DNA from: an uncultured Christensenella sp.
GTDB taxonomy: Bacteria > Bacillota > Clostridia > Christensenellales > UBA1242
Length of the DNA: 64,000 bases
Reading direction: 5' to 3'
Assembly: GCA_964579205.1 (NCBI GenBank)
Contig: CAZOFH010000005.1
Coordinates: forward strand, 6,870-70,869
The notes under the pieces are model-generated. The model was not told the DNA's origin, did no database searches, and was given only the letters and a program-made list of their open reading frames with translations. The stretch's first letter is position 1. Each line of letters opens with the position of its first letter. This document shows, in pieces, positions 2,125 through 34,724 of this stretch. Made by a program: the position numbers and the translations under genes.

Positions 2125-2268
2125 ATTGAGAAAACCTCCTTTTGGACTAATGGACAAAGCGAACCAACGCACGAGTAGCCCGAACCATTACCAGCCCGAG
2201 TGCTAATACTAGCCCGCTAAAAACATACTAGCCCGCTTTGTCAAGGATTACTCTCGTAATCTACCCAT

Positions 2269-2297
2269 ATTATAGCACAAGTTTCGTAAACTTGCAA
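2269..2297 (-). promoter_or_regulatory. Sigma-A-type promoter for rpsF-ssb-rpsR (TTGCAA-N17-TATAAT)
   Basis: On the minus strand, TTGCAA lies at 2292-2297 and TATAAT at 2269-2274 with a 17-nt spacer. This implies a 5' UTR of about 135 nt. Confidence 0.45.
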
Positions 2298-2344
2298 TAC
2301 TTTACGCAAAAGAATTTTTGGGAATTTTTATAGATATTCCGCTT

Positions 2345-2440
2345 TCTCTTGTCACTATGTGCAGGCAGTTTCGTTTTGGGGTTCGCTATCGCTCACAGAT
2401 TCCACGGACGCAAATGCGTCCTCTGAATGACAAAGGAAGG
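2345..2440. repeat. Intergenic structured repeat, copy A
   Basis: Core is GGGGTTCG-[GC tatc GC]-TCACAGATTCCAC-[GGACGC aaat GCGTCC]-TCTGAATGACAAAGGAAGG. It shares a 5' extension (TCTCTTGTCaCTATGTGCAGgC) with copy D. Confidence 0.75.
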
Positions 2441-2450
2441 CATCCCCCCA

Positions 2451-2487
2451 AAACAAAAAGACCCCCACAGGGTCTTTTTGTTTTGCC
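2451..2487. terminator. Bidirectional rho-independent terminator (3' end of the 2540..3241 gene)
   Basis: AAAAAGACCC-ccaca-GGGTCTTTTT with flanking A and T runs. It is nearly identical to the terminator at 3599-3633. Confidence 0.75.
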
Positions 2488-2539
2488 ACATCCCTCAAAA
2501 ACTTGCAAAAGCCAGTTTCCCTTTTTTAGGCATTTCGAT

Positions 2540-3241
2540 TTACGCCCATTTGATGCCGTTGGTGTTAAAGTCGATGATGCCATTCCAGTCGGCGGTAGAA
2601 ATGGTCGCGCCAGAGTTTTTGTTTTTGGCAGTGACGACGACTAGCCCTTGCATTTTTTTGCCCAAGTTGGCGGTCGTCAAAGTCTGAGTCAGCGGATAAA
2701 AGTCATTTATCATACTGGTAAAACTCGTCCCCACCGCGGTAAACTCTTTGGTCACGCAAAGAGCGGAATAAGCATAGGTTTGATTGCTCGAATTTTTTGG
2801 CACACTAGTGATGAGCGCCTGCTCTTGGGCAGTGTAATTGGCACTAGTGACCGTGGTCGTGCCTGTAGAGGCAGTAATCGCCGAAATCGAACTATTGGTG
2901 GTGTACACAATAGCGAAAACACGCACTACTACCGAAGTCCGAGTGCCAGTACCTTGGGTCACTTTGACACCGATATTCTCAAAGAACGGCGCCGAAAGAG
3001 TGGCATCATCCACGATATATGTACTAGTCGCCCCTGCGGTCGCGATTTGCCAATGGTGACTATTGTCTATCCCCTGCACCTCGAGCGTAACGCTATCGGC
3101 AAAACCGAGCGAAACCGACGCTTTTTTGGCACTGCTAAAGAACGCCAGCACAATAGTACTGATTACCGCCGCCACCAGCAAAAGAGTTAGCACGGAAAAA
3201 ATAATAATGGTCGGCAAATTTTTCATCTTGCGCAAAATCAA
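2540..3241 (-). CDS. Secreted protein with a SipW/TasA-style N-terminal signal (paralog 5)
   Basis: The N-terminus 'KNLPTIIIFSVLTLLLVAAVISTIVLAFFSSAKKASVSLGF' parallels the other paralogs and the TasA/CalY '..GGGTWAAFND/AFFSD' pattern. The start is uncertain; the TTG at 3235 has the best spacing from AGGAGG. Confidence 0.6.
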   Translation of the reverse strand: MILRKMKNLPTIIIFSVLTLLLVAAVISTIVLAFFSSAKKASVSLGFADSVTLEVQGIDNSHHWQIATAGATSTYIVDDATLSAPFFENIGVKVTQGTGTRTSVVVRVFAIVYTTNSSISAITASTGTTTVTSANYTAQEQALITSVPKNSSNQTYAYSALCVTKEFTAVGTSFTSMINDFYPLTQTLTTANLGKKMQGLVVVTAKNKNSGATISTADWNGIIDFNTNGIKWA

Positions 3242-3266
3242 TTCCTCCTAATATACACTCTTAATT

Positions 3267-3296
3267 ATTGTACCACATTTGTACATTTTTTTGCAA
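3267..3296 (-). promoter_or_regulatory. Promoter for the 2540..3241 gene (TTGCAA-N18-TGgTACAAT)
   Basis: On the minus strand, -35 TTGCAA lies at 3291-3296 and an extended -10 TGgTACAAT ends at 3267. A TGTACA palindrome sits in the spacer. Confidence 0.45.
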
Positions 3297-3351
3297 ATAA
3301 ATTGCAGGATAATTTTGACAATTCCAAAAAATTGTTTTTGAGGCTTTTTTT

Positions 3352-3416
3352 GGGGTTCGGCTAAAGCCTCACAGATTTCACGGACGCAAACGCATCCTCT
3401 GAATGACAGTGGAAGA
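3352..3416. repeat. Intergenic structured repeat, copy B
   Basis: GGGGTTCG-[GGC taaa GCC]-TCACAGATTTCAC-[GGACGC aaac GCATCC]-TCTGAATGACAGTGGAAGA. Confidence 0.75.
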
Positions 3417-3454
3417 AAATGACTAAATAGTGTCGGGGGCGGCTGTTCCCGACT

Positions 3455-3516
3455 GGGTTCGCTAGCGCTCACAGATTCCACGCAGTTGTAGCAACTGCTC
3501 TGAATGACAGAGGAAG
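3455..3516. repeat. Intergenic structured repeat, copy C (tandem with copy B)
   Basis: GGGTTCG-[GC tagc GC]-TCACAGATTCCAC-[GCAGTTG tag CAACTGC]-TCTGAATGACAGAGGAAGA. Confidence 0.75.
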
Positions 3517-3546
3517 AAAATTTGACTTTATAATAATTAGTAAAAT

Positions 3547-3597
3547 GGGGTCGAGGGGGCTCCCCCCAGCCTCTAAATAGCAAAGGCAGGCATCCCC
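3547..3597. repeat. Partial or degenerate repeat copy fused to the terminator module
   Basis: '..CCTCTAAATAGCAAAGGCAGGCATCCCCC' parallels the 3' end of copy A ('CCTCTGAATGACAAAGGAAGGCATCCCCCC'), and the same terminator follows. Confidence 0.5.
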
Positions 3598-3598
3598 C

Positions 3599-3633
3599 AA
3601 AACAAAAAGACCCTGCGGGGTCTTTTTGTTTTC
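3599..3633. terminator. Bidirectional rho-independent terminator (3' end of the 3682..4395 gene)
   Basis: AAAAAGACCC-tgcg-GGGTCTTTTT with A and T runs. Confidence 0.75.
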
Positions 3634-3681
3634 GTTTAGTAAATTACTCTATCATTCAGCGGCGTGATAGCGTGGGAGTTA

Positions 3682-4395
3682 TCAGCTGACTGTCCAAGAG
3701 GTAGTCGAGATATCGGCAGACTGGATGGCTTGCTCGATGCTACCTGAGTTTTCGTATACTGCAGCGAAGTACAGAGTAGCAGTAAAGGCAGTGTCAGCCA
3801 ATGCGTTGATAGCCGAGTCAGTGTAGCCGGTGTTGATATATTTTGTGAGCCAAGCCTCGGCGCCGGTCTGACCACTAGCCTCGAGAGTGAATTGCGCCCA
3901 TTGATATGATGTGCCAGCGTTATTAATCTTGGCAGAGAAATATGTCGGGGTGCCATTCGCAAAGTTGCGAGAATCAGAGGTACTATCAGCCAAAGCGGTC
4001 GTTCCAGTCGCGGTAGTAGTACCTACATTGAGGGCAGGCTTTGCCTTGCTCCCGTTGGCAGTGATGACCACTGCGACAGCCACGATTACCTTTTTGCTGG
4101 TGTTATTCTTGACTCTGATAGGAGCCAGCGCAACACCTTGAGTGAGTTCGGTATTGGCGGTCAGTTGGTTGCCGATAGTGCCGTTTTTGTTGACGAGATA
4201 CGCTTCCCATTGCCCTGAACTAGTGAGACCGTTGGTCGCGGTGATAGATACCTGACTCGCGAAACTCAGCGTATTACTAGCCTTGGCAGTAAAACTAAAA
4301 CCTGCCAGCACGATAGTAGCGGTGAGGGCGACTGCCAGCAAAACCGACAAAACTACTACACTGATACTCAGTGATTTTGTTTTGGTAAGTGCCAT
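3682..4395 (-). CDS. Secreted protein with a SipW/TasA-style N-terminal signal (paralog 4)
   Basis: Starts at 'MALTKTKSLSISVVVLSVLLAVALTATIVLAGFSFTAKASNTLSF' (ATG at 4395, AGAGGA upstream). The body is Ser/Thr/Ala-rich and looks beta-rich. The C-terminus 'LYFAAVYENSGSIEQAI' is paralogous to the 4487..5161 gene. Confidence 0.65.
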   Translation of the reverse strand: MALTKTKSLSISVVVLSVLLAVALTATIVLAGFSFTAKASNTLSFASQVSITATNGLTSSGQWEAYLVNKNGTIGNQLTANTELTQGVALAPIRVKNNTSKKVIVAVAVVITANGSKAKPALNVGTTTATGTTALADSTSDSRNFANGTPTYFSAKINNAGTSYQWAQFTLEASGQTGAEAWLTKYINTGYTDSAINALADTAFTATLYFAAVYENSGSIEQAIQSADISTTSWTVS

Positions 4396-4419
4396 ATTTG
4401 TTTTTCCTCTTAATTTTTT

Positions 4420-4460
4420 TTGATTTACAAAAACAATGGACAACCCAAAACAGGTCGTCC
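4420..4460 (-). terminator. Rho-independent terminator after the 4487..5161 gene
   Basis: On the minus strand, GGACGACC-tgttttg-GGTTGTCC is followed by a T-rich tract. Confidence 0.6.
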
Positions 4461-4486
4461 GATTGTAAATTATTTGTTAATGTTTA

Positions 4487-5161
4487 TTATGCACCAGCAA
4501 AGCTTGAGTAAGTACCAGCAGCGATAGCAGAGTTGATGTTTGTAATAGCGTTTGCATCATCTACAACAGCAACAATGTAAATTGTACCCTTAAATCCTGA
4601 ACCAGAAGCCAACGCTGTAGAGTTGAATGCTGAGTGAATGTAGTTAAGAACTGTTGTTGCAGCAGCAACGCTAGCACCTTGCTTAAATACTTTCCAAGTA
4701 GCAGCCTCAGTGCCTGGAGTTACTGTAGAATCAGTAGCGCCAGTAGCGAATGCATTCCCTGCAGAGTGAGCAGTATCAGTAGTAGCAGCAGTAGAACTGT
4801 CAACATACAAACCAGCCAATTCAGTACCAGCCGCTTCGATTTTGTAACCTACAGCGATAGCTACACCTACAGAACTTGTGTTTTTAACAGTAATGTTTGA
4901 AAGTGATACACCTTGTGAAAGTCCGCTTGTTGTGCTAGTTGTTGTACTAGAAATAGTACCATTAGCATCGATTGTGTGAGCGTTCCAAGCGCTACCTGAA
5001 ACACCAGTGACTTCCAAACTAATACCATTACCGAAAGTCAAAGTGGTAGTCGCACTACCTGTGAACGAGAAGGCTGCGAGTACGATTGTAGCAGCCAAAG
5101 CGGCAGCCAAAAGCACCGACAAGGTCACGATAGCTACAGTCGACATTTTTGTCTTTGTCAT
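4487..5161 (-). CDS. Secreted protein with a SipW/TasA-style N-terminal signal (paralog 3, candidate major subunit)
   Basis: Starts at 'MTKTKMSTVAIVTLSVLLAAALAATIVLAAFSFTGSATTTLTFGNG' (ATG at 5161, AAAGGAG 10 nt upstream). The upstream part of the 280-aa track ORF looks non-coding. Confidence 0.65.
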   Translation of the reverse strand: MTKTKMSTVAIVTLSVLLAAALAATIVLAAFSFTGSATTTLTFGNGISLEVTGVSGSAWNAHTIDANGTISSTTTSTTSGLSQGVSLSNITVKNTSSVGVAIAVGYKIEAAGTELAGLYVDSSTAATTDTAHSAGNAFATGATDSTVTPGTEAATWKVFKQGASVAAATTVLNYIHSAFNSTALASGSGFKGTIYIVAVVDDANAITNINSAIAAGTYSSFAGA

Positions 5162-5638
5162 AATAAATGACTCCTTTTTATTTTTTTTGAATTGTGTCTC
5201 GGTATCCAACCTATTTACGACGGGTCCCAACAGGTCGTATGAGGTTTTCGCCAGACTGTATATCCTCTTGCCCATAAGTATACTGCTGTCCAGCGGTGCC
5301 ACAGTGCTAGGTAAAAAACTCGGGTACATTACCTGTCAAAAAATCGCACTCGGCTGGCACCGAAACTATTGTGAGACTACTATCTACTCTGCTATCCTTG
5401 CACAGCATCATCCCCCACCTCTCCTATTTTTGTCAAGGCTAGAGGACACGATCTCCTGAACCACCCTATGAGCATGGGAAATCATTCTTCGCTCTAGTCT
5501 TGTCATTAGTGTGGTATGATGTCGCCCGCGGATAGTCGAGCATCTCAGTAGCACAGCCCCGTCATCAGACAAAGGCGGAGCCGTAGTCTCGCTACTGGGT
5601 AGTTTAGGGAGGTTCCGCTCCACAAGTTCATCATTTAT
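5162..5638 (-). promoter_or_regulatory. Long (about 470 nt) structured 5' leader of the 4487..5161 gene; class unknown
   Basis: The only good sigma-A promoter I can find lies at 5646-5675. The intervening sequence is GC-richer than other spacers, has no credible ORF, and contains many complementary segments, for example CGGTGCCA paired with TGGCACCG. Confidence 0.4.
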
Positions 5639-5645
5639 TGGAATA

Positions 5646-5675
5646 ATAATATCATTAATTGATATCGTTTGGCAA
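5646..5675 (-). promoter_or_regulatory. Promoter (TTGCCA-N18-TATTAT) with upstream A-tracts
   Basis: On the minus strand, TTGCCA lies at 5670-5675 and TATTAT at 5646-5651. Phased A-runs lie upstream at 5690-5760. Confidence 0.4.
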
Positions 5676-5912
5676 ACGATTTTGAGGTATTTTTTCGATT
5701 TTTTTTATTTTTTTTCGATTTTTTTTGTTTTTTGGGGTTTTGGGGGGATTTTTGTCACTTTTTGACGGCAAATATGTGAGTGTGAGGAGAAATGACTGAG
5801 TATAGGAGGAATAATGCAGCACTATGTGCAAATTCTCCCTTTTGTTACATTTTTTGCATTTTGCGCTATTTTTATACACTGCCGATGAGGAAATTGGAGG
5901 GAACCACCTCAT

Positions 5913-5944
5913 AAAAAAGAACGCCGTGGGGCGTTCTTATAAAA
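5913..5944. terminator. Bidirectional rho-independent terminator after the 5952..6536 gene
   Basis: AAGAACGCC-gtgg-GGCGTTCTT flanked by A and T runs. Confidence 0.7.
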
Positions 5945-5951
5945 TGATGCA

Positions 5952-6536
5952 TTACGCGGCGATTGGCTCGACGTCTACGGTAAATGCGCAATCGACGGAG
6001 GTGACAGTACCCACGAGGTAGCCGTCATTTGGGCTGCCGCCAAAGTTACTAGTGCTGGAGGTATCAAAGCCTAGTGGCACGGTGACGGTCAAGGTGGCTG
6101 CTTTGGCAGTGCCGGCGGTGACCTCTAGTCCGCTCCCCAGTCCCAAGGCGAATGTCCACGCGCCTGCAGTAGTGGTGACGGTAGCGGAATTATTTGAATT
6201 TGACACTGAGGTAAAACTCTTTGAACTATTCGTCCCCCAATGCAAGGTAAATGATGTCAACTGAAAGTTGGTCAATTTTACCTTGGTCGCGTGGTTGGCT
6301 TCGGTAGGTAGGTTAAAGTGGACGGTGGCTTGGCTAGTGCCGCCGGGGTACAATTTTGCAGCGACAGAAGTGCTACACGCGACAGTACCGAGGTCTGCTA
6401 TATAGACGGTATTTTTGCCATAACCGTACGATGACATTGCGGCGAGAGTAATGCTCGCGGTCATTGCGACGACCATTATCAACACCATTGATATAAATAT
6501 GGTTAGAGTTGCTCGCGAATGGGTAATCCTGCGCAT
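5952..6536 (-). CDS. Small secreted protein with a SipW/TasA-style signal (paralog 2)
   Basis: 'TLTIFISMVLIMVVAMTASITLAAMSSYGYGKN' at the N-terminus, with a GGAGGGGGAG RBS. It lies 21 nt downstream of the 388-aa gene. Confidence 0.55.
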   Translation of the reverse strand: MRRITHSRATLTIFISMVLIMVVAMTASITLAAMSSYGYGKNTVYIADLGTVACSTSVAAKLYPGGTSQATVHFNLPTEANHATKVKLTNFQLTSFTLHWGTNSSKSFTSVSNSNNSATVTTTAGAWTFALGLGSGLEVTAGTAKAATLTVTVPLGFDTSSTSNFGGSPNDGYLVGTVTSVDCAFTVDVEPIAA

Positions 6537-6557
6537 TTACTCCCCCTCCTAATTGAT

Positions 6558-7724
6558 TTAATTCGTAGTGATTAGTTTCTTAAAGTCATTGTAATATGTT
6601 TTGCCTGAGTAGTTTGAATCGAGTGATTTTAGCCAAGCCAAGTATTTATCTTGGACGGGCTGGTTTAGGTAGTTATTATAAAAGGTCATAGTATCCATAC
6701 TGCTGACTGACATGCGGATACTCGTCTCGGTATCGGTGATGTCAAAGTAAAGTTTGCTATCCGTACCGCTAGACAAGTCTACATACTGCCCTGGAGAAAT
6801 CGGCGCGCTGACAAAGTAGGTATTGTATCCGCTAGTCGCCGTGCTGTCGCTCGCTTTGATAAAGGTCTGAGGTGCAGAATTTAGAGTGATGTATGTAGTC
6901 CAATTACCGTTTGAGAACACACTATTCTTGGCAGGCTGAGAGCCGCCATTGATAATCTGGATAGCATAGATGACGGTGACATTTGAGTTATTATAAATAG
7001 TGATAGCATTTGACGAAGTAATCGTATCAAATGAGGTGGCAGACGGCATCTTGACTTTGTTGAATGCGAATGAGCCGTCTGACTGCTTGGTCGCTACAAA
7101 CGAGGCATTGGCAGAGGTAGCGCCCGTATCTGTAGATGACCCTGGGATGCGTCTATTGGCGCTGTGCCCTGAGTACATCAATATCAAATCGTTGGCGTCC
7201 ATTGTGCCGCCATTGGTGATATCCACGCCGTCTGTAGTCAGCGTACCCAAGGTACCCACAGTAGCATAAAGGTCACGACTCGACCACTCTACGATAAAAC
7301 CAGCCTCTTTGCCATTACTAGAGGTGGTATCTAGCGCGTATTGTGCTTGCGCCAACTCGACTGAGATATTGCTAGATGTGGCGCCCGTGAGGGAAATCGT
7401 CTTTGAAGAATCGTCGCGCTTTATCACCTTGTAATAATAGTACCAGCCGTTGTCCTGCAAAAACCACTGATTGCTATTGAATGTAACTCCGCTACTCACC
7501 AATGGCGTGGCGCGCAAGACGCAATCCATATCGCTAGTCACGGTAATAGAGCCATTGGCTACTGTCGCACTGAGAGAGCCGACCACACCTACACCCGGCA
7601 CATTCTTTGACTGATTGAGCGCGAGCGAGGCAAATAGTATTGTGCCGGCGAGACACACAGCCAGCAACACGGCGGTCACTACGACAATCAAGACAAACGG
7701 CGTTCTGCGTGCGTTTTTATTCAA
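6558..7724 (-). CDS. Larger secreted protein with a SipW/TasA-style signal (paralog 1, possibly a TapA-like accessory or anchor)
   Basis: TTG start after AGGAGGGGAG. The N-terminus is 'RRTPFVLIVVVTAVLLAVCLAGTILFASLALNQSKN', and the mature part is Ser/Thr/Asn-rich. Confidence 0.55.
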   Translation of the reverse strand: MNKNARRTPFVLIVVVTAVLLAVCLAGTILFASLALNQSKNVPGVGVVGSLSATVANGSITVTSDMDCVLRATPLVSSGVTFNSNQWFLQDNGWYYYYKVIKRDDSSKTISLTGATSSNISVELAQAQYALDTTSSNGKEAGFIVEWSSRDLYATVGTLGTLTTDGVDITNGGTMDANDLILMYSGHSANRRIPGSSTDTGATSANASFVATKQSDGSFAFNKVKMPSATSFDTITSSNAITIYNNSNVTVIYAIQIINGGSQPAKNSVFSNGNWTTYITLNSAPQTFIKASDSTATSGYNTYFVSAPISPGQYVDLSSGTDSKLYFDITDTETSIRMSVSSMDTMTFYNNYLNQPVQDKYLAWLKSLDSNYSGKTYYNDFKKLITTN

Positions 7725-7832: not shown

Positions 7833-8726
7833 TTATCCGTGAAGCATATTTTCAAAGCGGATTTTCTCTTCTTTTTGCTTTGCCAACTGCGCCTGCTCCA
7901 CTGCCAATCGCTCGTATTCGGTCTTTTTGTCCAAAAATTCCTTGAACTCTTGGTCATTGTGCTTTTTCTCGATAAGGGCGCGTGACAAGAGCAGACCTAT
8001 GAGGACACAGATAAACACGGCTAGCACTAGGATAAAGTTGGACTGAACAAACATTATCACATACCCCACAAATGGGATAGCGACTATCATTTTGCCCTGC
8101 ACTGCCTCAAACTTTATGACGTGGCACAAGTTTTGGTCATTGTATCTAGGGTCGTCGCTATTCGAGCCGACCATAATAATTACATCACTGCCGACGCTAC
8201 GCACCTTGTGAATGTAATTATTCGCCCCGTGGGAATAACTCAATATATCCCCTACCTTGATATCCTCAATGCTCGCGACTGGCTGGGTAATGACCATACT
8301 ACCTACGCTAATCTCGTCCTTCATACTGTCGGTCGGCACTAGCCCAATGCGCAAGCCCACTAGCAGCCCTAGAGCCACCATAAACGCTACTATTAACACA
8401 ATGGATAGCAAGAATGTATTGATGACATTGATAACGGTGACCGCTCTACTCGGGATGACCTGACTAAAGAGGTAATTGTCGGTGAATTCGTTCATCTGGC
8501 GGCGTTTGTAATTGCGCAATTTGAGCATTTCGCCGCTAGGTTCGCAGGCTTGGTCATACTGCTCCATTATAGACTGCATTTTGCCCTGAGGAGCGGGTGT
8601 CTTTGGGTCGTACAACACTTCTACTGCGTCAGAGCGTGGCTGCTCGGCATTGAGCATCTCGGTACGAGTGAGGTTTTCGCCATCCTCTACCTGCCGCTGT
8701 TCCTTTTTTTTATTTCCAAAATCCAT
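7833..8726 (-). CDS. sipW: Signal peptidase I of SipW/archaeal type (S26B), with a long N-terminal extension and a C-terminal TM segment plus coiled-coil tail
   Basis: 'VPTDSMKDEISVGSMVITQPV..IKVGDILSY..YIHKVRSV..GSNSDDP..VQGKMIVAIPFVGYV' follows the SipW pattern (SGSMEP..GD..THR..GDNN..G..P.GY) as I remember it. There is no LepB-type Lys box. Confidence 0.7.
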   Translation of the reverse strand: MDFGNKKKEQRQVEDGENLTRTEMLNAEQPRSDAVEVLYDPKTPAPQGKMQSIMEQYDQACEPSGEMLKLRNYKRRQMNEFTDNYLFSQVIPSRAVTVINVINTFLLSIVLIVAFMVALGLLVGLRIGLVPTDSMKDEISVGSMVITQPVASIEDIKVGDILSYSHGANNYIHKVRSVGSDVIIMVGSNSDDPRYNDQNLCHVIKFEAVQGKMIVAIPFVGYVIMFVQSNFILVLAVFICVLIGLLLSRALIEKKHNDQEFKEFLDKKTEYERLAVEQAQLAKQKEEKIRFENMLHG

Positions 8727-8787: not shown

Positions 8788-9012
8788 ACATTTAACGGCA
8801 TTTTTTATAAATTTTAGTACATTTTTTGAAAATGGTCTGAGTTTTATTTATTTTGTCTTATTTTGCTGGTTTTTATACCCTCGCGCGCGACTATTATATA
8901 TATGAAAGATAGGCTGGCGTCTGAGGCTCGAGGTGGCGGCGCACTGAGGCACGGGAGCGGTGTGGGCTCAGCCCCCTGCTGCATCGACATACTGCGGGAG
9001 AGACTTTCGCTG

Positions 9013-9104
9013 TCTCTTGTCGCTATGTGCAGACTGTTTTGATTTGGGGTTCGCCTACGGCTCACGGATCCCACGCGGTATTGCATACCGCTCTGAATGA
9101 CAAG
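9013..9104. repeat. Intergenic structured repeat, copy D
   Basis: TCTCTTGTCgCTATGTGCAGaC..GGGGTTCG-[CC tac GG]-CTCACGGATCCCAC-[GCGGTAT tgc ATACCGC]-TCTGAATGACAAG. A small hairpin GTAGC-ggt-GCTAC followed by T-rich sequence comes next. Confidence 0.75.
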
Positions 9105-9158
9105 TTTTGTAGCGGTGCTACATTTGATTTGATTGCCGCAAAAATTGGCGTTATTCAC

Positions 9159-9187
9159 TTGCCAAAAAAAAATCGAGGTGTTATAAT
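9159..9187 (+). promoter_or_regulatory. Promoter for ppa-lepB (TTGCCA-N17-TGtTATAAT)
   Basis: TTGCCA at 9159-9164 and TATAAT at 9182-9187, with an upstream TG. Confidence 0.55.
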
Positions 9188-34109: not shown

Positions 34110-34724
34110 TTACTTATCATCAAAGTCGTCGTCATCGTCTTCATCAAAATCATCATCGTAGTCGTCATCATCTTCATCATCGTCATCGTAGTCGTCATCG
34201 TCAAAATCGTCATCGTAGTTAAAGTCGTCTTCAAAATCGTCCTTATAATCGTCGTCTTCCTCATCTTCTGCAAGGTCGTCATCATCCAACTCATCGCTAA
34301 AGTCGACTTCATCATCCAGAGGTATGCCAATATCGAGGTCGTCTAACCCTTCGAGCACGGCGGCATCGCCATTGACATCGATGTCGTTGACCATTTCGCC
34401 CAAGCCGTCATCGTCGTCGGCAAGGTCGTCATCATCTTCATCGTCCCACTTTGCGCCCGTGTCCATATCGTCATCATCGCAAATTTTCTTTTCGCGCTCA
34501 TGCTCTTTGCGGCACGACTCACACATAATCTCTTCTTCATTTATGTAATTAGTCTTACAAATCGGGCAAATGTCAAGGTCAAAATCCATATCCAGATCCA
34601 AATCCTTGTCATCTGAAAATGCTGCTTCCATCTCTTTTTTGCAAACACTACAAAATTTGTCATTCACATTGATATAATTGAGTTCGCAACGAGGACAGCG
34701 AATAAACTTGTTATCTGTATCCAA
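34110..34724 (-). CDS. Double zinc-ribbon protein with an extremely acidic (poly-Asp/Glu) C-terminal half
   Basis: 'CPRCELNY..CSVCKK' and 'CPICKTNY..CESCRK' are followed by about 120 residues dominated by D and E. The start is tentatively the TTG at 34724, 8 nt after AGGAG; the track ORF extends to 34745. Confidence 0.55.
   Translation of the reverse strand: MDTDNKFIRCPRCELNYINVNDKFCSVCKKEMEAAFSDDKDLDLDMDFDLDICPICKTNYINEEEIMCESCRKEHEREKKICDDDDMDTGAKWDDEDDDDLADDDDGLGEMVNDIDVNGDAAVLEGLDDLDIGIPLDDEVDFSDELDDDDLAEDEEDDDYKDDFEDDFNYDDDFDDDDYDDDDEDDDDYDDDFDEDDDDDFDDK

What the first reader, a model, noticed from the sequence alone, without database searches (positions are those of the whole stretch)
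2345..3597. Intergenic element with two covarying hairpins, three copies (A, B, C) inside and at the 3' edge of the fibre locus
Aligned by eye, the copies are as follows. A is GGGGTTCGCTATCGCTCACAGATTCCACGGACGCAAATGCGTCCTCTGAATGACAAAGGAAGG. B is GGGGTTCGGCTAAAGCCTCACAGATTTCACGGACGCAAACGCATCCTCTGAATGACAGTGGAAGA. C is GGGTTCGCTAGCGCTCACAGATTCCACGCAGTTGTAGCAACTGCTCTGAATGACAGAGGAAGA. The single-stranded blocks GGGGTTCG, TCACAGATTCCAC and TCTGAATGACA are conserved. The two intervening hairpins change sequence but keep pairing: hairpin 1 is GC/GC, GGC/GCC or GCC/GGC, and hairpin 2 is GGACGC/GCGTCC, GCAGTTG/CAACTGC or GCGGTAT/ATACCGC (the last of each taken from copy D). In addition, TCACAGA can pair with TCTG-aa-TGA to close hairpin 2. 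That pattern argues for selection on structure, either as RNA or as a DNA cruciform. I cannot match it to any Rfam family from memory. Copy A and the partial copy at 3547-3597 are each fused to a near-identical terminator module. The strand is ambiguous: copy D has a G-U pair that only works on the plus strand, while copy B has a mismatch that would be a G-U pair only on the minus strand.
Basis: seen in the sequence. Interest (0 to 1): 0.7.

Follow-up and report, generated by a model that had tools for sequence, protein, structure and literature searches.

The report
Hairpin-bearing intergenic repeat beside fibre genes
A short non-coding repeat with one clearly co-varying hairpin sits in the spacers after terminators in a variable surface-fibre locus of an uncultured Clostridia bacterium; it behaves more like a small, patchily distributed, recombining intergenic repeat than like a conserved new RNA gene.

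Summary
There are four full copies (A 2378-2440, B 3352-3416, C 3455-3517, D 9046-9102) and one partial copy (P 3547-3598), all on the + strand. The three sequence blocks are near-identical. Hairpin 2 has three unrelated but fully paired stems, and 6 of its 7 pairs change on both sides. Hairpin 1 is weak (2-3 bp). The proposed closing helix shows no covariation and is broken in a distant copy.

There is no Rfam match. A covariance model finds no other copy in the 64-kb window.

The element is modular: a 5' module, one or more cores, then a 3' module ending in a bidirectional terminator. Every copy lies outside the predicted mRNAs, and no sigma-70 promoter precedes any array.

Near-identical strains carry different hairpin types at the same position, one crossover lies inside copy B, and one strain has a decaying copy C. 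Syntenic sister species lack the element. One of them has an unrelated repeat of similar design in the same kind of spacer. A more distant relative (L035) has two diverged tandem copies, again next to the terminator of a fibre gene.

Best reading: a small BOX/bcr1/SPRITE-like intergenic repeat (about 0.5). A fibre-locus RNA or a recombination site is not excluded.

The parts
2337..2377 (+). 5' module of copy A (TTCCGCTTTCTCTTGTCACTATGTGCAGGCAGTTTCGTTTT)
   Evidence: 86% identical to 9005-9054 over 50 nt, which runs into block 1.
2378..2440 (+). Core copy A. Block 1 is 2378-2385 (its last G opens hairpin 1), hairpin 1 2385-2392, block 2 2393-2405, hairpin 2 (type I, GGACGC/GCGTCC) 2406-2421, block 3 2422-2432.
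   Evidence: Covariance model R1 scores 87.2 bits.
2441..2485 (.). 3' module of A: CATCCCCCC followed by a bidirectional intrinsic terminator (AAAACAAAAAGACCC...GGGTCTTTTTGTTTT). It also terminates the minus-strand fibre gene 2540-3235.
   Evidence: Inverted self-match 2449-2485. 16-bp stem in the fold. Paralogous to 3599-3632.
3352..3416 (+). Core copy B. Hairpin 2 is type I with one C-A mismatch. B is the first unit of the tandem array B-C-P.
   Evidence: R1 scores 84.5 bits.
3455..3517 (+). Core copy C (hairpin 2 type II, GCAGTTG/CAACTGC).
   Evidence: R1 scores 77.9 bits.
3547..3598 (+). Partial copy P: GGGGTCG, one hairpin (GGGGG/CCCCC), then a degenerate block 3 and 3' module (CCTCTAAATAGCAAAGGCAGGCATCCCCC).
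   Evidence: Alignment A1. 86% identical to 2420-2484.
3599..3633 (.). Bidirectional terminator at the end of the B-C-P array. It also terminates the minus-strand fibre gene 3682-4395.
   Evidence: Inverted self-match 3599-3632 and 94% identity to 2450-2485. Fold.
9005..9045 (+). 5' module of copy D.
9046..9102 (+). Core copy D (hairpin 2 type III, GCGGTAT/ATACCGC; block 2 reads TCACGGATCCCAC).
   Evidence: R1 scores 77.9 bits.
9108..9122 (+). Short hairpin with a T-rich tail after D (TGTAGCGGTGCTACA TTTGATTTG), a weak terminator-like site.
8905..9140 (+). G+C-rich insertion of about 235 nt upstream of the ppa promoter. It contains D. A relative has a much shorter, insert-free spacer here. The boundaries are approximate.
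   Evidence: Comparison with the spacer in L029/L030, and with the different inserts in L012 and L014.

Best explanation
The copies belong to a small, non-coding, modular intergenic repeat family of the same general kind as pneumococcal BOX and SPRITE or Bacillus bcr1.

What is shown:
- A unit is built from a 5' module, one to three tandem 'core' modules, and a 3' module that ends in a bidirectional intrinsic terminator.
- Each core is three conserved sequence blocks separated by two short stem-loops.
- The units sit in the low-constraint spacer between the terminator of one gene and the promoter of the next, within a strain-variable locus of secreted 'fibre' genes.
- Between strains, different copies carry each other's stem types.

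What is inferred:
- Copies multiply locally by tandem duplication and are exchanged by recombination or gene conversion. The conserved blocks provide the homology, which would explain why the same stem types move between positions.
- The family is carried along, gained and lost together with fibre-gene cassettes.
- The palindromic stem is kept because the folded form (single-stranded DNA or RNA) is what the propagation or maintenance process recognises, or because it acts as an extra terminator or insulator hairpin.

I take the element to be selfish or neutral with at most a local accessory effect on transcription. I do not take it to be a dedicated RNA gene.
For: Modular build. Three modules occur in different combinations: the 5' module in A and D, the core in A-D, and the 3' module with terminator in A and P. 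B-C-P forms a tandem array, and so does X1-X2 in L035.

Position. All copies lie between an intrinsic terminator and the next sigma-70-type promoter, or upstream of the ppa promoter. No promoter precedes any array on the + strand.

Patchy distribution.
- Present in near-identical strains (L008-L011, L019-L024, L028).
- Absent from syntenic loci of relatives whose Ppa is 93%, 89%, 88% and 84% identical, and from L025 and L026.
- Present again, diverged, in L035, whose fibre protein is only 55% identical and which is probably more distant than L012.
- The ppa-upstream spacer is short and insert-free in L029/L030, and holds unrelated inserts in L012 and L014.

A parallel family. L014 has its own unrelated 3-copy repeat of the same design (conserved blocks plus compensated variable hairpins), on the same strand and in the same kinds of spacer.

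Exchange and decay.
- The copy at position A has stem type I in the window, type III in L021 and type II in L023/L024.
- L028 is a recombinant whose crossover lies inside the 5' half of copy B.
- Copy C in L009 carries three substitutions, two of them in block 3 (TCTG to CCCG) and one in the stem.

Nothing points elsewhere. There is no Rfam family. No transposase, recombinase or reverse transcriptase was found among the window proteins scanned.

Precedent. Compensatory changes in repeats of this class are reported for bcr1 (PMC3184786). Modularity (BOX) and a terminator-like repeat enriched at 3' ends of genes (SPRITE) are reported in PMC3049150.
Against: - In 64 kb the copies are not dispersed. 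All lie within 7 kb around one locus, and the more sensitive model R2 finds no others.
- No terminal inverted repeats longer than 6 nt were found. No target-site duplication can be read, because no clean empty site exists.
- No mobilising enzyme is known.
- The blocks are far better conserved than the stems and flanks. In three cases across two lineages a unit abuts the terminator of a fibre gene. Both facts would also fit a locus-specific function.
- The total copy number in the genome is unknown.
Confidence: 0.5

Rival explanations
1. A structured non-coding RNA read from the + strand, convergent with the fibre genes and ending at the shared bidirectional terminator. Each array (5' module-A; B-C-P; X1-X2) would be one small RNA carrying one to three structured repeats. 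It would act on fibre-locus expression in cis or in trans.
For: - Every array ends at an intrinsic terminator when read on the + strand: A, B-C-P, X2 in L035, and a weak one after D.
- Blocks are conserved while hairpin 2 covaries.
- RNAalifold draws a block 1:block 2 helix that contains G-U pairs and is therefore possible only on the + strand. D's two substitutions in block 2 both strengthen it.
- The association with fibre-gene 3' ends is seen in two lineages.
Against: - No sigma-70-type promoter lies upstream of A, B or the D insert. The similarity between A and D starts abruptly, with no shared upstream sequence.
- Syntenic sister species lack the element.
- Fold z-scores of single cores are unremarkable, between -0.02 and -2.1.
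- Four of five single transitions in stems would be G-U pairs only on the minus strand.
- Neither closing helix shows a two-sided change, and both are partly broken in L035.
Confidence: 0.2
2. A recombination site or homology anchor for exchanging fibre-gene cassettes. The conserved blocks, possibly with the folded hairpin in single-stranded DNA as in integron attC sites, would mark cassette boundaries and promote replacement of fibre alleles.
For: - A and D are direct repeats that share the extra 5' module and bracket the whole SipW-like plus fibre gene set. B-C-P separates two fibre genes.
- Fibre genes differ strongly between strains whose Ppa and S6 proteins are identical: 83% identity in L023, and a different gene set in L009.
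- One crossover maps inside copy B, and the stems at position A differ between strains.
- All copies share one orientation.
Against: - No integrase or recombinase was found among the window proteins scanned.
- The blocks do not match the attC core sites RYYYAAC and GTTRRRY.
- Each fibre gene has its own promoter and terminator, unlike integron cassettes.
- Sister species vary the same locus without the element.
- A crossover in a 33-nt identical stretch is what ordinary homologous recombination would give in any case.
Confidence: 0.15
3. A passive by-product. The copies would be leftovers of local duplications of spacer DNA, including terminator hairpins, with no structure-dependent role. The palindromes would persist only because they are young or are corrected by quasi-palindrome template switching.
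For: - The copies are clustered within 7 kb.
- B and C share an extended 3' flank, and A and P share the terminator module.
- Copy C is decaying in L009.
Against: - Three or four unrelated stems are all perfectly paired at the same position between near-identical blocks. Simple duplication followed by drift does not predict this.
- The similarity stops at the element edges and does not include the adjacent promoters or genes.
- A diverged but still paired version persists in a distant lineage.
Confidence: 0.15

Closest known systems
BOX elements of Streptococcus pneumoniae (boxA-boxB(n)-boxC)
   Same: Both are short, non-coding and intergenic, and both are built from modules in which the middle module can be repeated. 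Both are predicted to fold into stem-loops. Both are restricted to one species and its close relatives, and both are often found downstream of genes (PMC3049150).
   Different: No sequence similarity was established. BOX has terminal inverted repeats and target-site duplications and occurs in more than 100 dispersed copies. Here there are no terminal inverted repeats, no readable duplication, and all known copies lie in one locus.
SPRITE (pneumococcal Rho-independent-terminator-like repeat)
   Same: Both are repeat families that include a long terminator-like hairpin with a U tract and are enriched just after the 3' ends of genes. For SPRITE, too, no empty site could be found to prove mobility (PMC3049150).
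   Different: Here only the 3' module is terminator-like. The core has no U tract and has conserved unpaired blocks.
bcr1 repeat of the Bacillus cereus group
   Same: Both are repeats of roughly 100-155 nt in Firmicutes with two independent stem-loops, compensatory base changes that keep the stems, a non-conserved genomic distribution between close relatives, and copies that lose stability over time (PMC3184786).
   Different: bcr1 is flanked by 5-bp direct repeats, is shown to be transcribed and is dispersed over the chromosome. None of these is shown here.
REP / BIME elements with RAYT transposases
   Same: Both are extragenic palindromes recognised as hairpins, with a strand or orientation bias.
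   Different: REPs are 20-40 nt with a GTAG or CGTC tag at one end and stems that are conserved within a family (PMC3733652 abstract). Here the stems differ completely, hairpin 2 has no such tag, and no RAYT gene is in the window.
Integron attC sites
   Different: There are no R''/R' core sites and no IntI gene. The genes have their own promoters and terminators. The bulged helix is not conserved in L035.

Membership tests
Any Rfam 15 RNA family | Match to a curated covariance model at or near its gathering score | tested here: not met
   Only two tRNAs are found in the window at gathering thresholds. In 2200-3800 at E up to 10 there are only sub-threshold noise hits, on the terminators and AT-rich DNA.
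MITE (miniature inverted-repeat transposable element) | Terminal inverted repeats | tested here: not met
   The only end-to-end complementarity is 6-7 nt: CTTGTC in the 5' module against GACAAG at block 3. No inverted-repeat arms were found beyond the hairpins and terminators.
MITE (miniature inverted-repeat transposable element) | Target-site duplication next to an otherwise intact empty site | tested here: inconclusive
   Relatives have the spacers without the element, but the flanks are too diverged to place the edges.
MITE / small interspersed repeat | Presence or absence differing between related genomes at the same locus | tested here: met
   Present in the window species and in L035. 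Absent from the syntenic loci L012, L014, L029/L030, L025 and L026.
MITE / small interspersed repeat | Many copies dispersed over the genome | tested here: inconclusive
   The window holds 4 full copies, all within 2.3-9.1 kb, and none in the other 55 kb. The rest of the genome could not be searched. Short-read contigs break inside the element in at least seven assemblies. That fits either extra copies or strain mixtures.
BOX-like modular repeat | Separate modules that occur in different combinations and numbers | tested here: met
   The combinations seen are 5' module + core + 3' module (A), core-core-partial core + 3' module (B-C-P), and 5' module + core (D). L023 has an extra module at position A.
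bcr1-type repeat | Independent stem-loops kept by compensatory changes | tested here: met
   In hairpin 2, 6 of 7 pairs change on both sides. X1 and X2 differ by one compensated pair. Hairpin 1 is only weakly supported.
bcr1-type repeat | Flanking 5-bp direct repeats and demonstrated transcription | not testable with these tools
   The insertion edges are not clean and no expression data are available.
REP/RAYT | GTAG- or CGTC-tagged palindrome of 20-40 nt, with a RAYT gene | tested here: not met
   Hairpin 2 is flanked by CAC and TCTG. No Y1-transposase domain was found among the window proteins scanned. The rest of the genome was not seen.
Integron attC | R''/R' core sites, an IntI integrase nearby, and promoterless cassettes | tested here: not met
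   The blocks do not fit RYYYAAC or GTTRRRY. No integrase was found among the window proteins scanned. Each fibre gene has its own promoter and terminator.
Independent small-RNA gene | Own promoter, own terminator and conservation in relatives | tested here: inconclusive
   A terminator is present on + for A, B-C-P and X2. No sigma-70-like promoter was found; alternative sigma factors were not scanned. Conservation is patchy.

The most novel reading that the evidence does not exclude
The element could be a dedicated part of the fibre-gene cassette. One possibility is a + strand structured RNA that converges on the fibre genes and shares their terminator. The other is a folded single-strand DNA site at which fibre cassettes are swapped. 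It would be kept for that purpose in at least two lineages, and replaced by an analogous, unrelated element in a third (L014).
Probability: 0.2. Interest if true: 0.65.

Novelty: new member of a known kind. Interest (0 to 1): 0.35.

Why it matters
If the best reading holds, this is one more lineage-restricted small repeat. It is useful mainly in three ways:
- As a caution that co-varying hairpins between conserved blocks are not enough to call a new RNA gene.
- As a marker of recombination in a strain-variable surface-fibre locus of uncultured gut or rumen-type Clostridia.
- As an explanation for why short-read assemblies break at this locus.

If the minority reading holds, it would be a new cis element tied to the diversification or control of SipW-type fibre genes. 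In that case the independent appearance of an analogous repeat in a sister species would be worth following up.

Tried and rejected
Known RNA families. Rfam at gathering thresholds and at E up to 10 gave nothing relevant. By eye, the hammerhead, twister and pistol cores and a tRNA T-arm do not fit either strand; in particular there is no CUGANGA...GAAA core.

Collection scans. I scanned GTDB genomes, JGI metagenomes and IMG/VR with GGTTCG-N(5-12)-TCACNGANNNCAC-N(10-30)-CTGAATGA. Only chance matches came back: 2, 5 and 0. The pattern later proved too strict, because the L035 copies would not match it.

Plasmids and phages. blastn of the 5' module plus core found no match.

Spurious ORFs. I looked for ORFs called across other copies, using the 111-aa minus-strand ORF and the 108-aa plus-strand ORF. 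Nothing relevant was found.

Mobile-element enzymes. No transposase, recombinase, reverse transcriptase or integrase domain appeared among the proteins scanned, which cover most of the larger ORFs; several had no Pfam match at all. The window is housekeeping DNA: Spo0A, RpoB/C, MreB, Lgt, TyrRS, MazF, DnaD/DnaI-like and others.

Other ideas rejected.
- CsrA sponge: the ACA-NN-GGA motifs in A-C are absent from D, X1 and X2.
- Outward -35 box (ATGACA in block 3): a -10 sits at a usable distance only in some copies.
- Homology between the window family and the L014 family: they are not alignable.
- An 18/19 match of D's tail to the start of an ORF at about 34.68 kb: E is about 0.01 for the window, so it is probably chance.

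One look-up was wasted on a wrongly guessed start codon.
Full report
**What is there.**
- A 2378-2440
- B 3352-3416
- C 3455-3517
- P 3547-3598
- D 9046-9102

This rests. The block pattern occurs 3 times against 0.00 expected from shuffles.

A and D share a 5' module of about 41 nt; the match 2337-2386 against 9005-9054 is 86% identical. A and P share a 3' module that runs into a near-identical bidirectional intrinsic terminator: 2420-2484 against 3570-3632 is 86% identical, and the terminators alone are 94% identical. B, C and P form a head-to-tail array.

**Setting.** The window is chromosomal housekeeping DNA of an uncultured spore-forming Clostridia bacterium. Its genes include GerA/B/C, rpsF-ssb-rpsR, ppa, DnaD/DnaI-like genes, Spo0A, rpoB/C, MreB and TyrRS.

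Between rpsF and ppa, on the minus strand, lie a weakly SipW-like signal peptidase (7833-8726) and five genes for secreted proteins with N-terminal signal anchors. None of the five matches any family. Their resemblance to TasA is my inference only.

The predicted promoters are these:
- rpsF: 2297-2269 (-)
- fibre gene 1: 3296-3267 (-)
- SipW-like gene: 8787-8759 (-)
- ppa: 9159-9187 (+)

Read along the minus strand, each fibre gene is followed by its terminator, then by the element, then by the next promoter. D lies in an insertion of about 235 nt just upstream of the ppa promoter. All copies are therefore outside the predicted mRNAs, and no sigma-70-type promoter precedes any array on the + strand.

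**Distribution.**
- Covariance model R1, run with filters off, finds only the four copies in 64 kb. The broader model R2 gives the same result.
- Rfam has no match.
- Contigs from near-identical strains carry the copies: L008-L011, L019-L024 and L028.
- Relatives with syntenic loci have none. These are L012 (Ppa 93% identical), L029/L030 (89%) and L014 (88%). L015-L018 (84%), L025 and L026 also have none.
- The ppa-upstream spacer is short and insert-free in L029/L030. It holds different, unrelated G+C-rich inserts in L012 and L014.
- L035 comes from an organism whose fibre-1 homologue is only 55% identical and whose neighbouring gene differs. It has two diverged tandem copies, X1 and X2, directly abutting the bidirectional terminator downstream of its fibre gene, in the same relative orientation. 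R2 scores X2 at 60.7 bits.

The family is therefore wider than one species, but patchy. My early pattern scans of the large collections found only chance matches. That pattern would have missed the L035 copies, so the scans do not show absence.

**A parallel family.** L014 (assembly GCA_965340305.1) has its own three-copy repeat, on the same strand and in the same kinds of spacer: after a fibre-gene terminator, upstream of ppa, and after the signal-peptidase gene. It has a conserved tail (CCYGGTAAAGGARCGCGTCCCTTTACAATCCCGARTAT) preceded by two hairpins. Their stems differ between copies but stay paired. It cannot be aligned with the window family.

**Structure.** Hairpin 2 is the only well-supported helix.
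- Six of its 7 pairs change on both sides, and about 95% of cells are paired. Sliding the partners by 1-3 columns gives 27-40%.
- There are three stem types: I GGACGC, II GCAGTTG and III GCGGTAT. P has a fourth stem, and L035 has a short fifth type. X1 and X2 differ by one compensated pair.
- Hairpin 1 is 2-3 bp, with one flip of its second pair by hand alignment.
Three of its four inner pairs are lost in X2, and the fourth survives only as a G-U wobble.
- RNAalifold prefers a block 1:block 2 helix that needs G-U pairs, so it is possible only on the + strand. D's two block-2 substitutions both strengthen it, but it also has breaks and no two-sided change.
- Single-core fold z-scores are unremarkable, from -0.02 to -2.1.

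The strand stays open. One, in D, would be a G-U pair only on the + strand. That split is not significant.

**Variation between strains.**
- The copy at position A has stem type I in the window. In L021 it has type III, which is D's stem. In L023/L024 it has type II, which is C's stem, plus an extra module.
- Copy B in L023 has a perfect stem and a different loop. L028 is L023-like up to the 5' half of B and window-like from hairpin 2 onward, so a crossover lies inside the element.
- Copy C in L009 has three substitutions: two in block 3 (TCTG to CCCG) and one in the stem.
- Fibre genes differ sharply between strains whose Ppa and S6 proteins are identical.
- Short-read contigs end inside the elements in at least seven assemblies. 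That fits either unseen extra copies or co-occurring strain variants.

**Interpretation.** The following features are those of small bacterial intergenic repeats:
- modular build and tandem growth
- placement in low-constraint spacers after terminators
- patchy presence among close relatives
- exchange of parts between copies
- a decaying copy
- no promoter
- a parallel unrelated family in a sister species

Known examples are BOX and SPRITE in pneumococcus (PMC3049150) and bcr1 in the Bacillus cereus group, where compensatory changes keeping two stem-loops are also reported (PMC3184786). I put this reading at about 0.5.

Three observations keep other readings open. All known copies cluster around one locus. 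The blocks are far better conserved than the stems. Units abut fibre-gene terminators in two lineages. I therefore give a + strand structured RNA about 0.2, a cassette-recombination site or homology anchor about 0.15, and passive duplication debris about 0.15.

**Limits.** The alignment has only six to eight distinct sequences, most of them from one species, so the covariation statistics show that the palindrome is maintained but do not show by what.

Noticed in passing
window 2150-2262 (minus strand, rpsF 5' leader); L021 and L022: The rpsF leader holds four tandem units of about 12-20 nt (GCGGGCUAGUAU-like on the mRNA strand) enclosed by a long-range helix (GACAAAGCG/CGCUUUGUC). Strains L021 and L022 have identical S6 protein, yet the same leader carries at least a dozen units. 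L025 and L026 have only a simple hairpin there. This looks like a variable-number repeat expansion inside a probable S6:S18 autoregulatory leader. Rfam did not flag the region.
   Followed up: partly
L014 5255-5340, 9780-9825, 11355-11435: The sister species (GCA_965340305.1) has its own three-copy intergenic repeat. It has a conserved tail (CCYGGTAAAGGARCGCGTCCCTTTACAATCCCGARTAT) and two variable, compensated hairpins, on the same strand and in analogous spacers. It cannot be aligned with the window family.
   Followed up: partly
window 5162-5951: This 790-nt stretch between two fibre genes has no called gene, yet parts of it are 78-92% identical to L012 6044-6839. That is much better conserved than the other spacers. 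It includes T-rich tandem repeats (5680-5745) and a run TTTTGGGGTTTTGGGGGG. It could be an unannotated gene, a pseudogene or an RNA.
   Followed up: no
window 8870-8905; L012 9715-9740; L014 9865-9900; L029 1345-1385: A box TTTTATAC(C)NCTCGCGCGCG followed by TATATTATATATA is conserved in every relative, in the spacer between the SipW-like gene and ppa. The inserts sit next to it, on different sides in different species. It is possibly a regulatory site for the fibre operon.
   Followed up: no
window 34662-34680 (minus strand) against 9093-9111: D's block 3 plus the next 8 nt (TGAATGACAAGTTTTGTAG) matches 18 of 19 bases near the start of an ORF for an acidic protein with a CxxC...CxxC N-terminus. 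E is about 0.01 for the window, so this is probably chance.
   Followed up: partly
window 2540-7724 against 12000-64000: The plus-strand GC skew is strongly negative (-0.13 to -0.19) from 12 kb onward, as expected for genes on the leading minus strand. It is near zero or positive across the fibre genes, which are also on the minus strand. This may reflect their Thr/Ser/Ala-rich composition or a foreign origin.
   Followed up: no
window 3409-3430 and 3510-3536: After cores B and C, a Shine-Dalgarno-like GGAAG is followed by three-codon mini-ORFs: ATG ACT AAA TAG and TTG ACT TTA TAA. Both are kept in strains L023 and L009. They are probably just shared descent of the 3' flank.
   Followed up: no
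L025 1930-2823: In one relative, a Fic-domain gene is inserted between the fibre genes and rpsF. This is a further sign that the locus is a hotspot for gene gain and loss.
   Followed up: no
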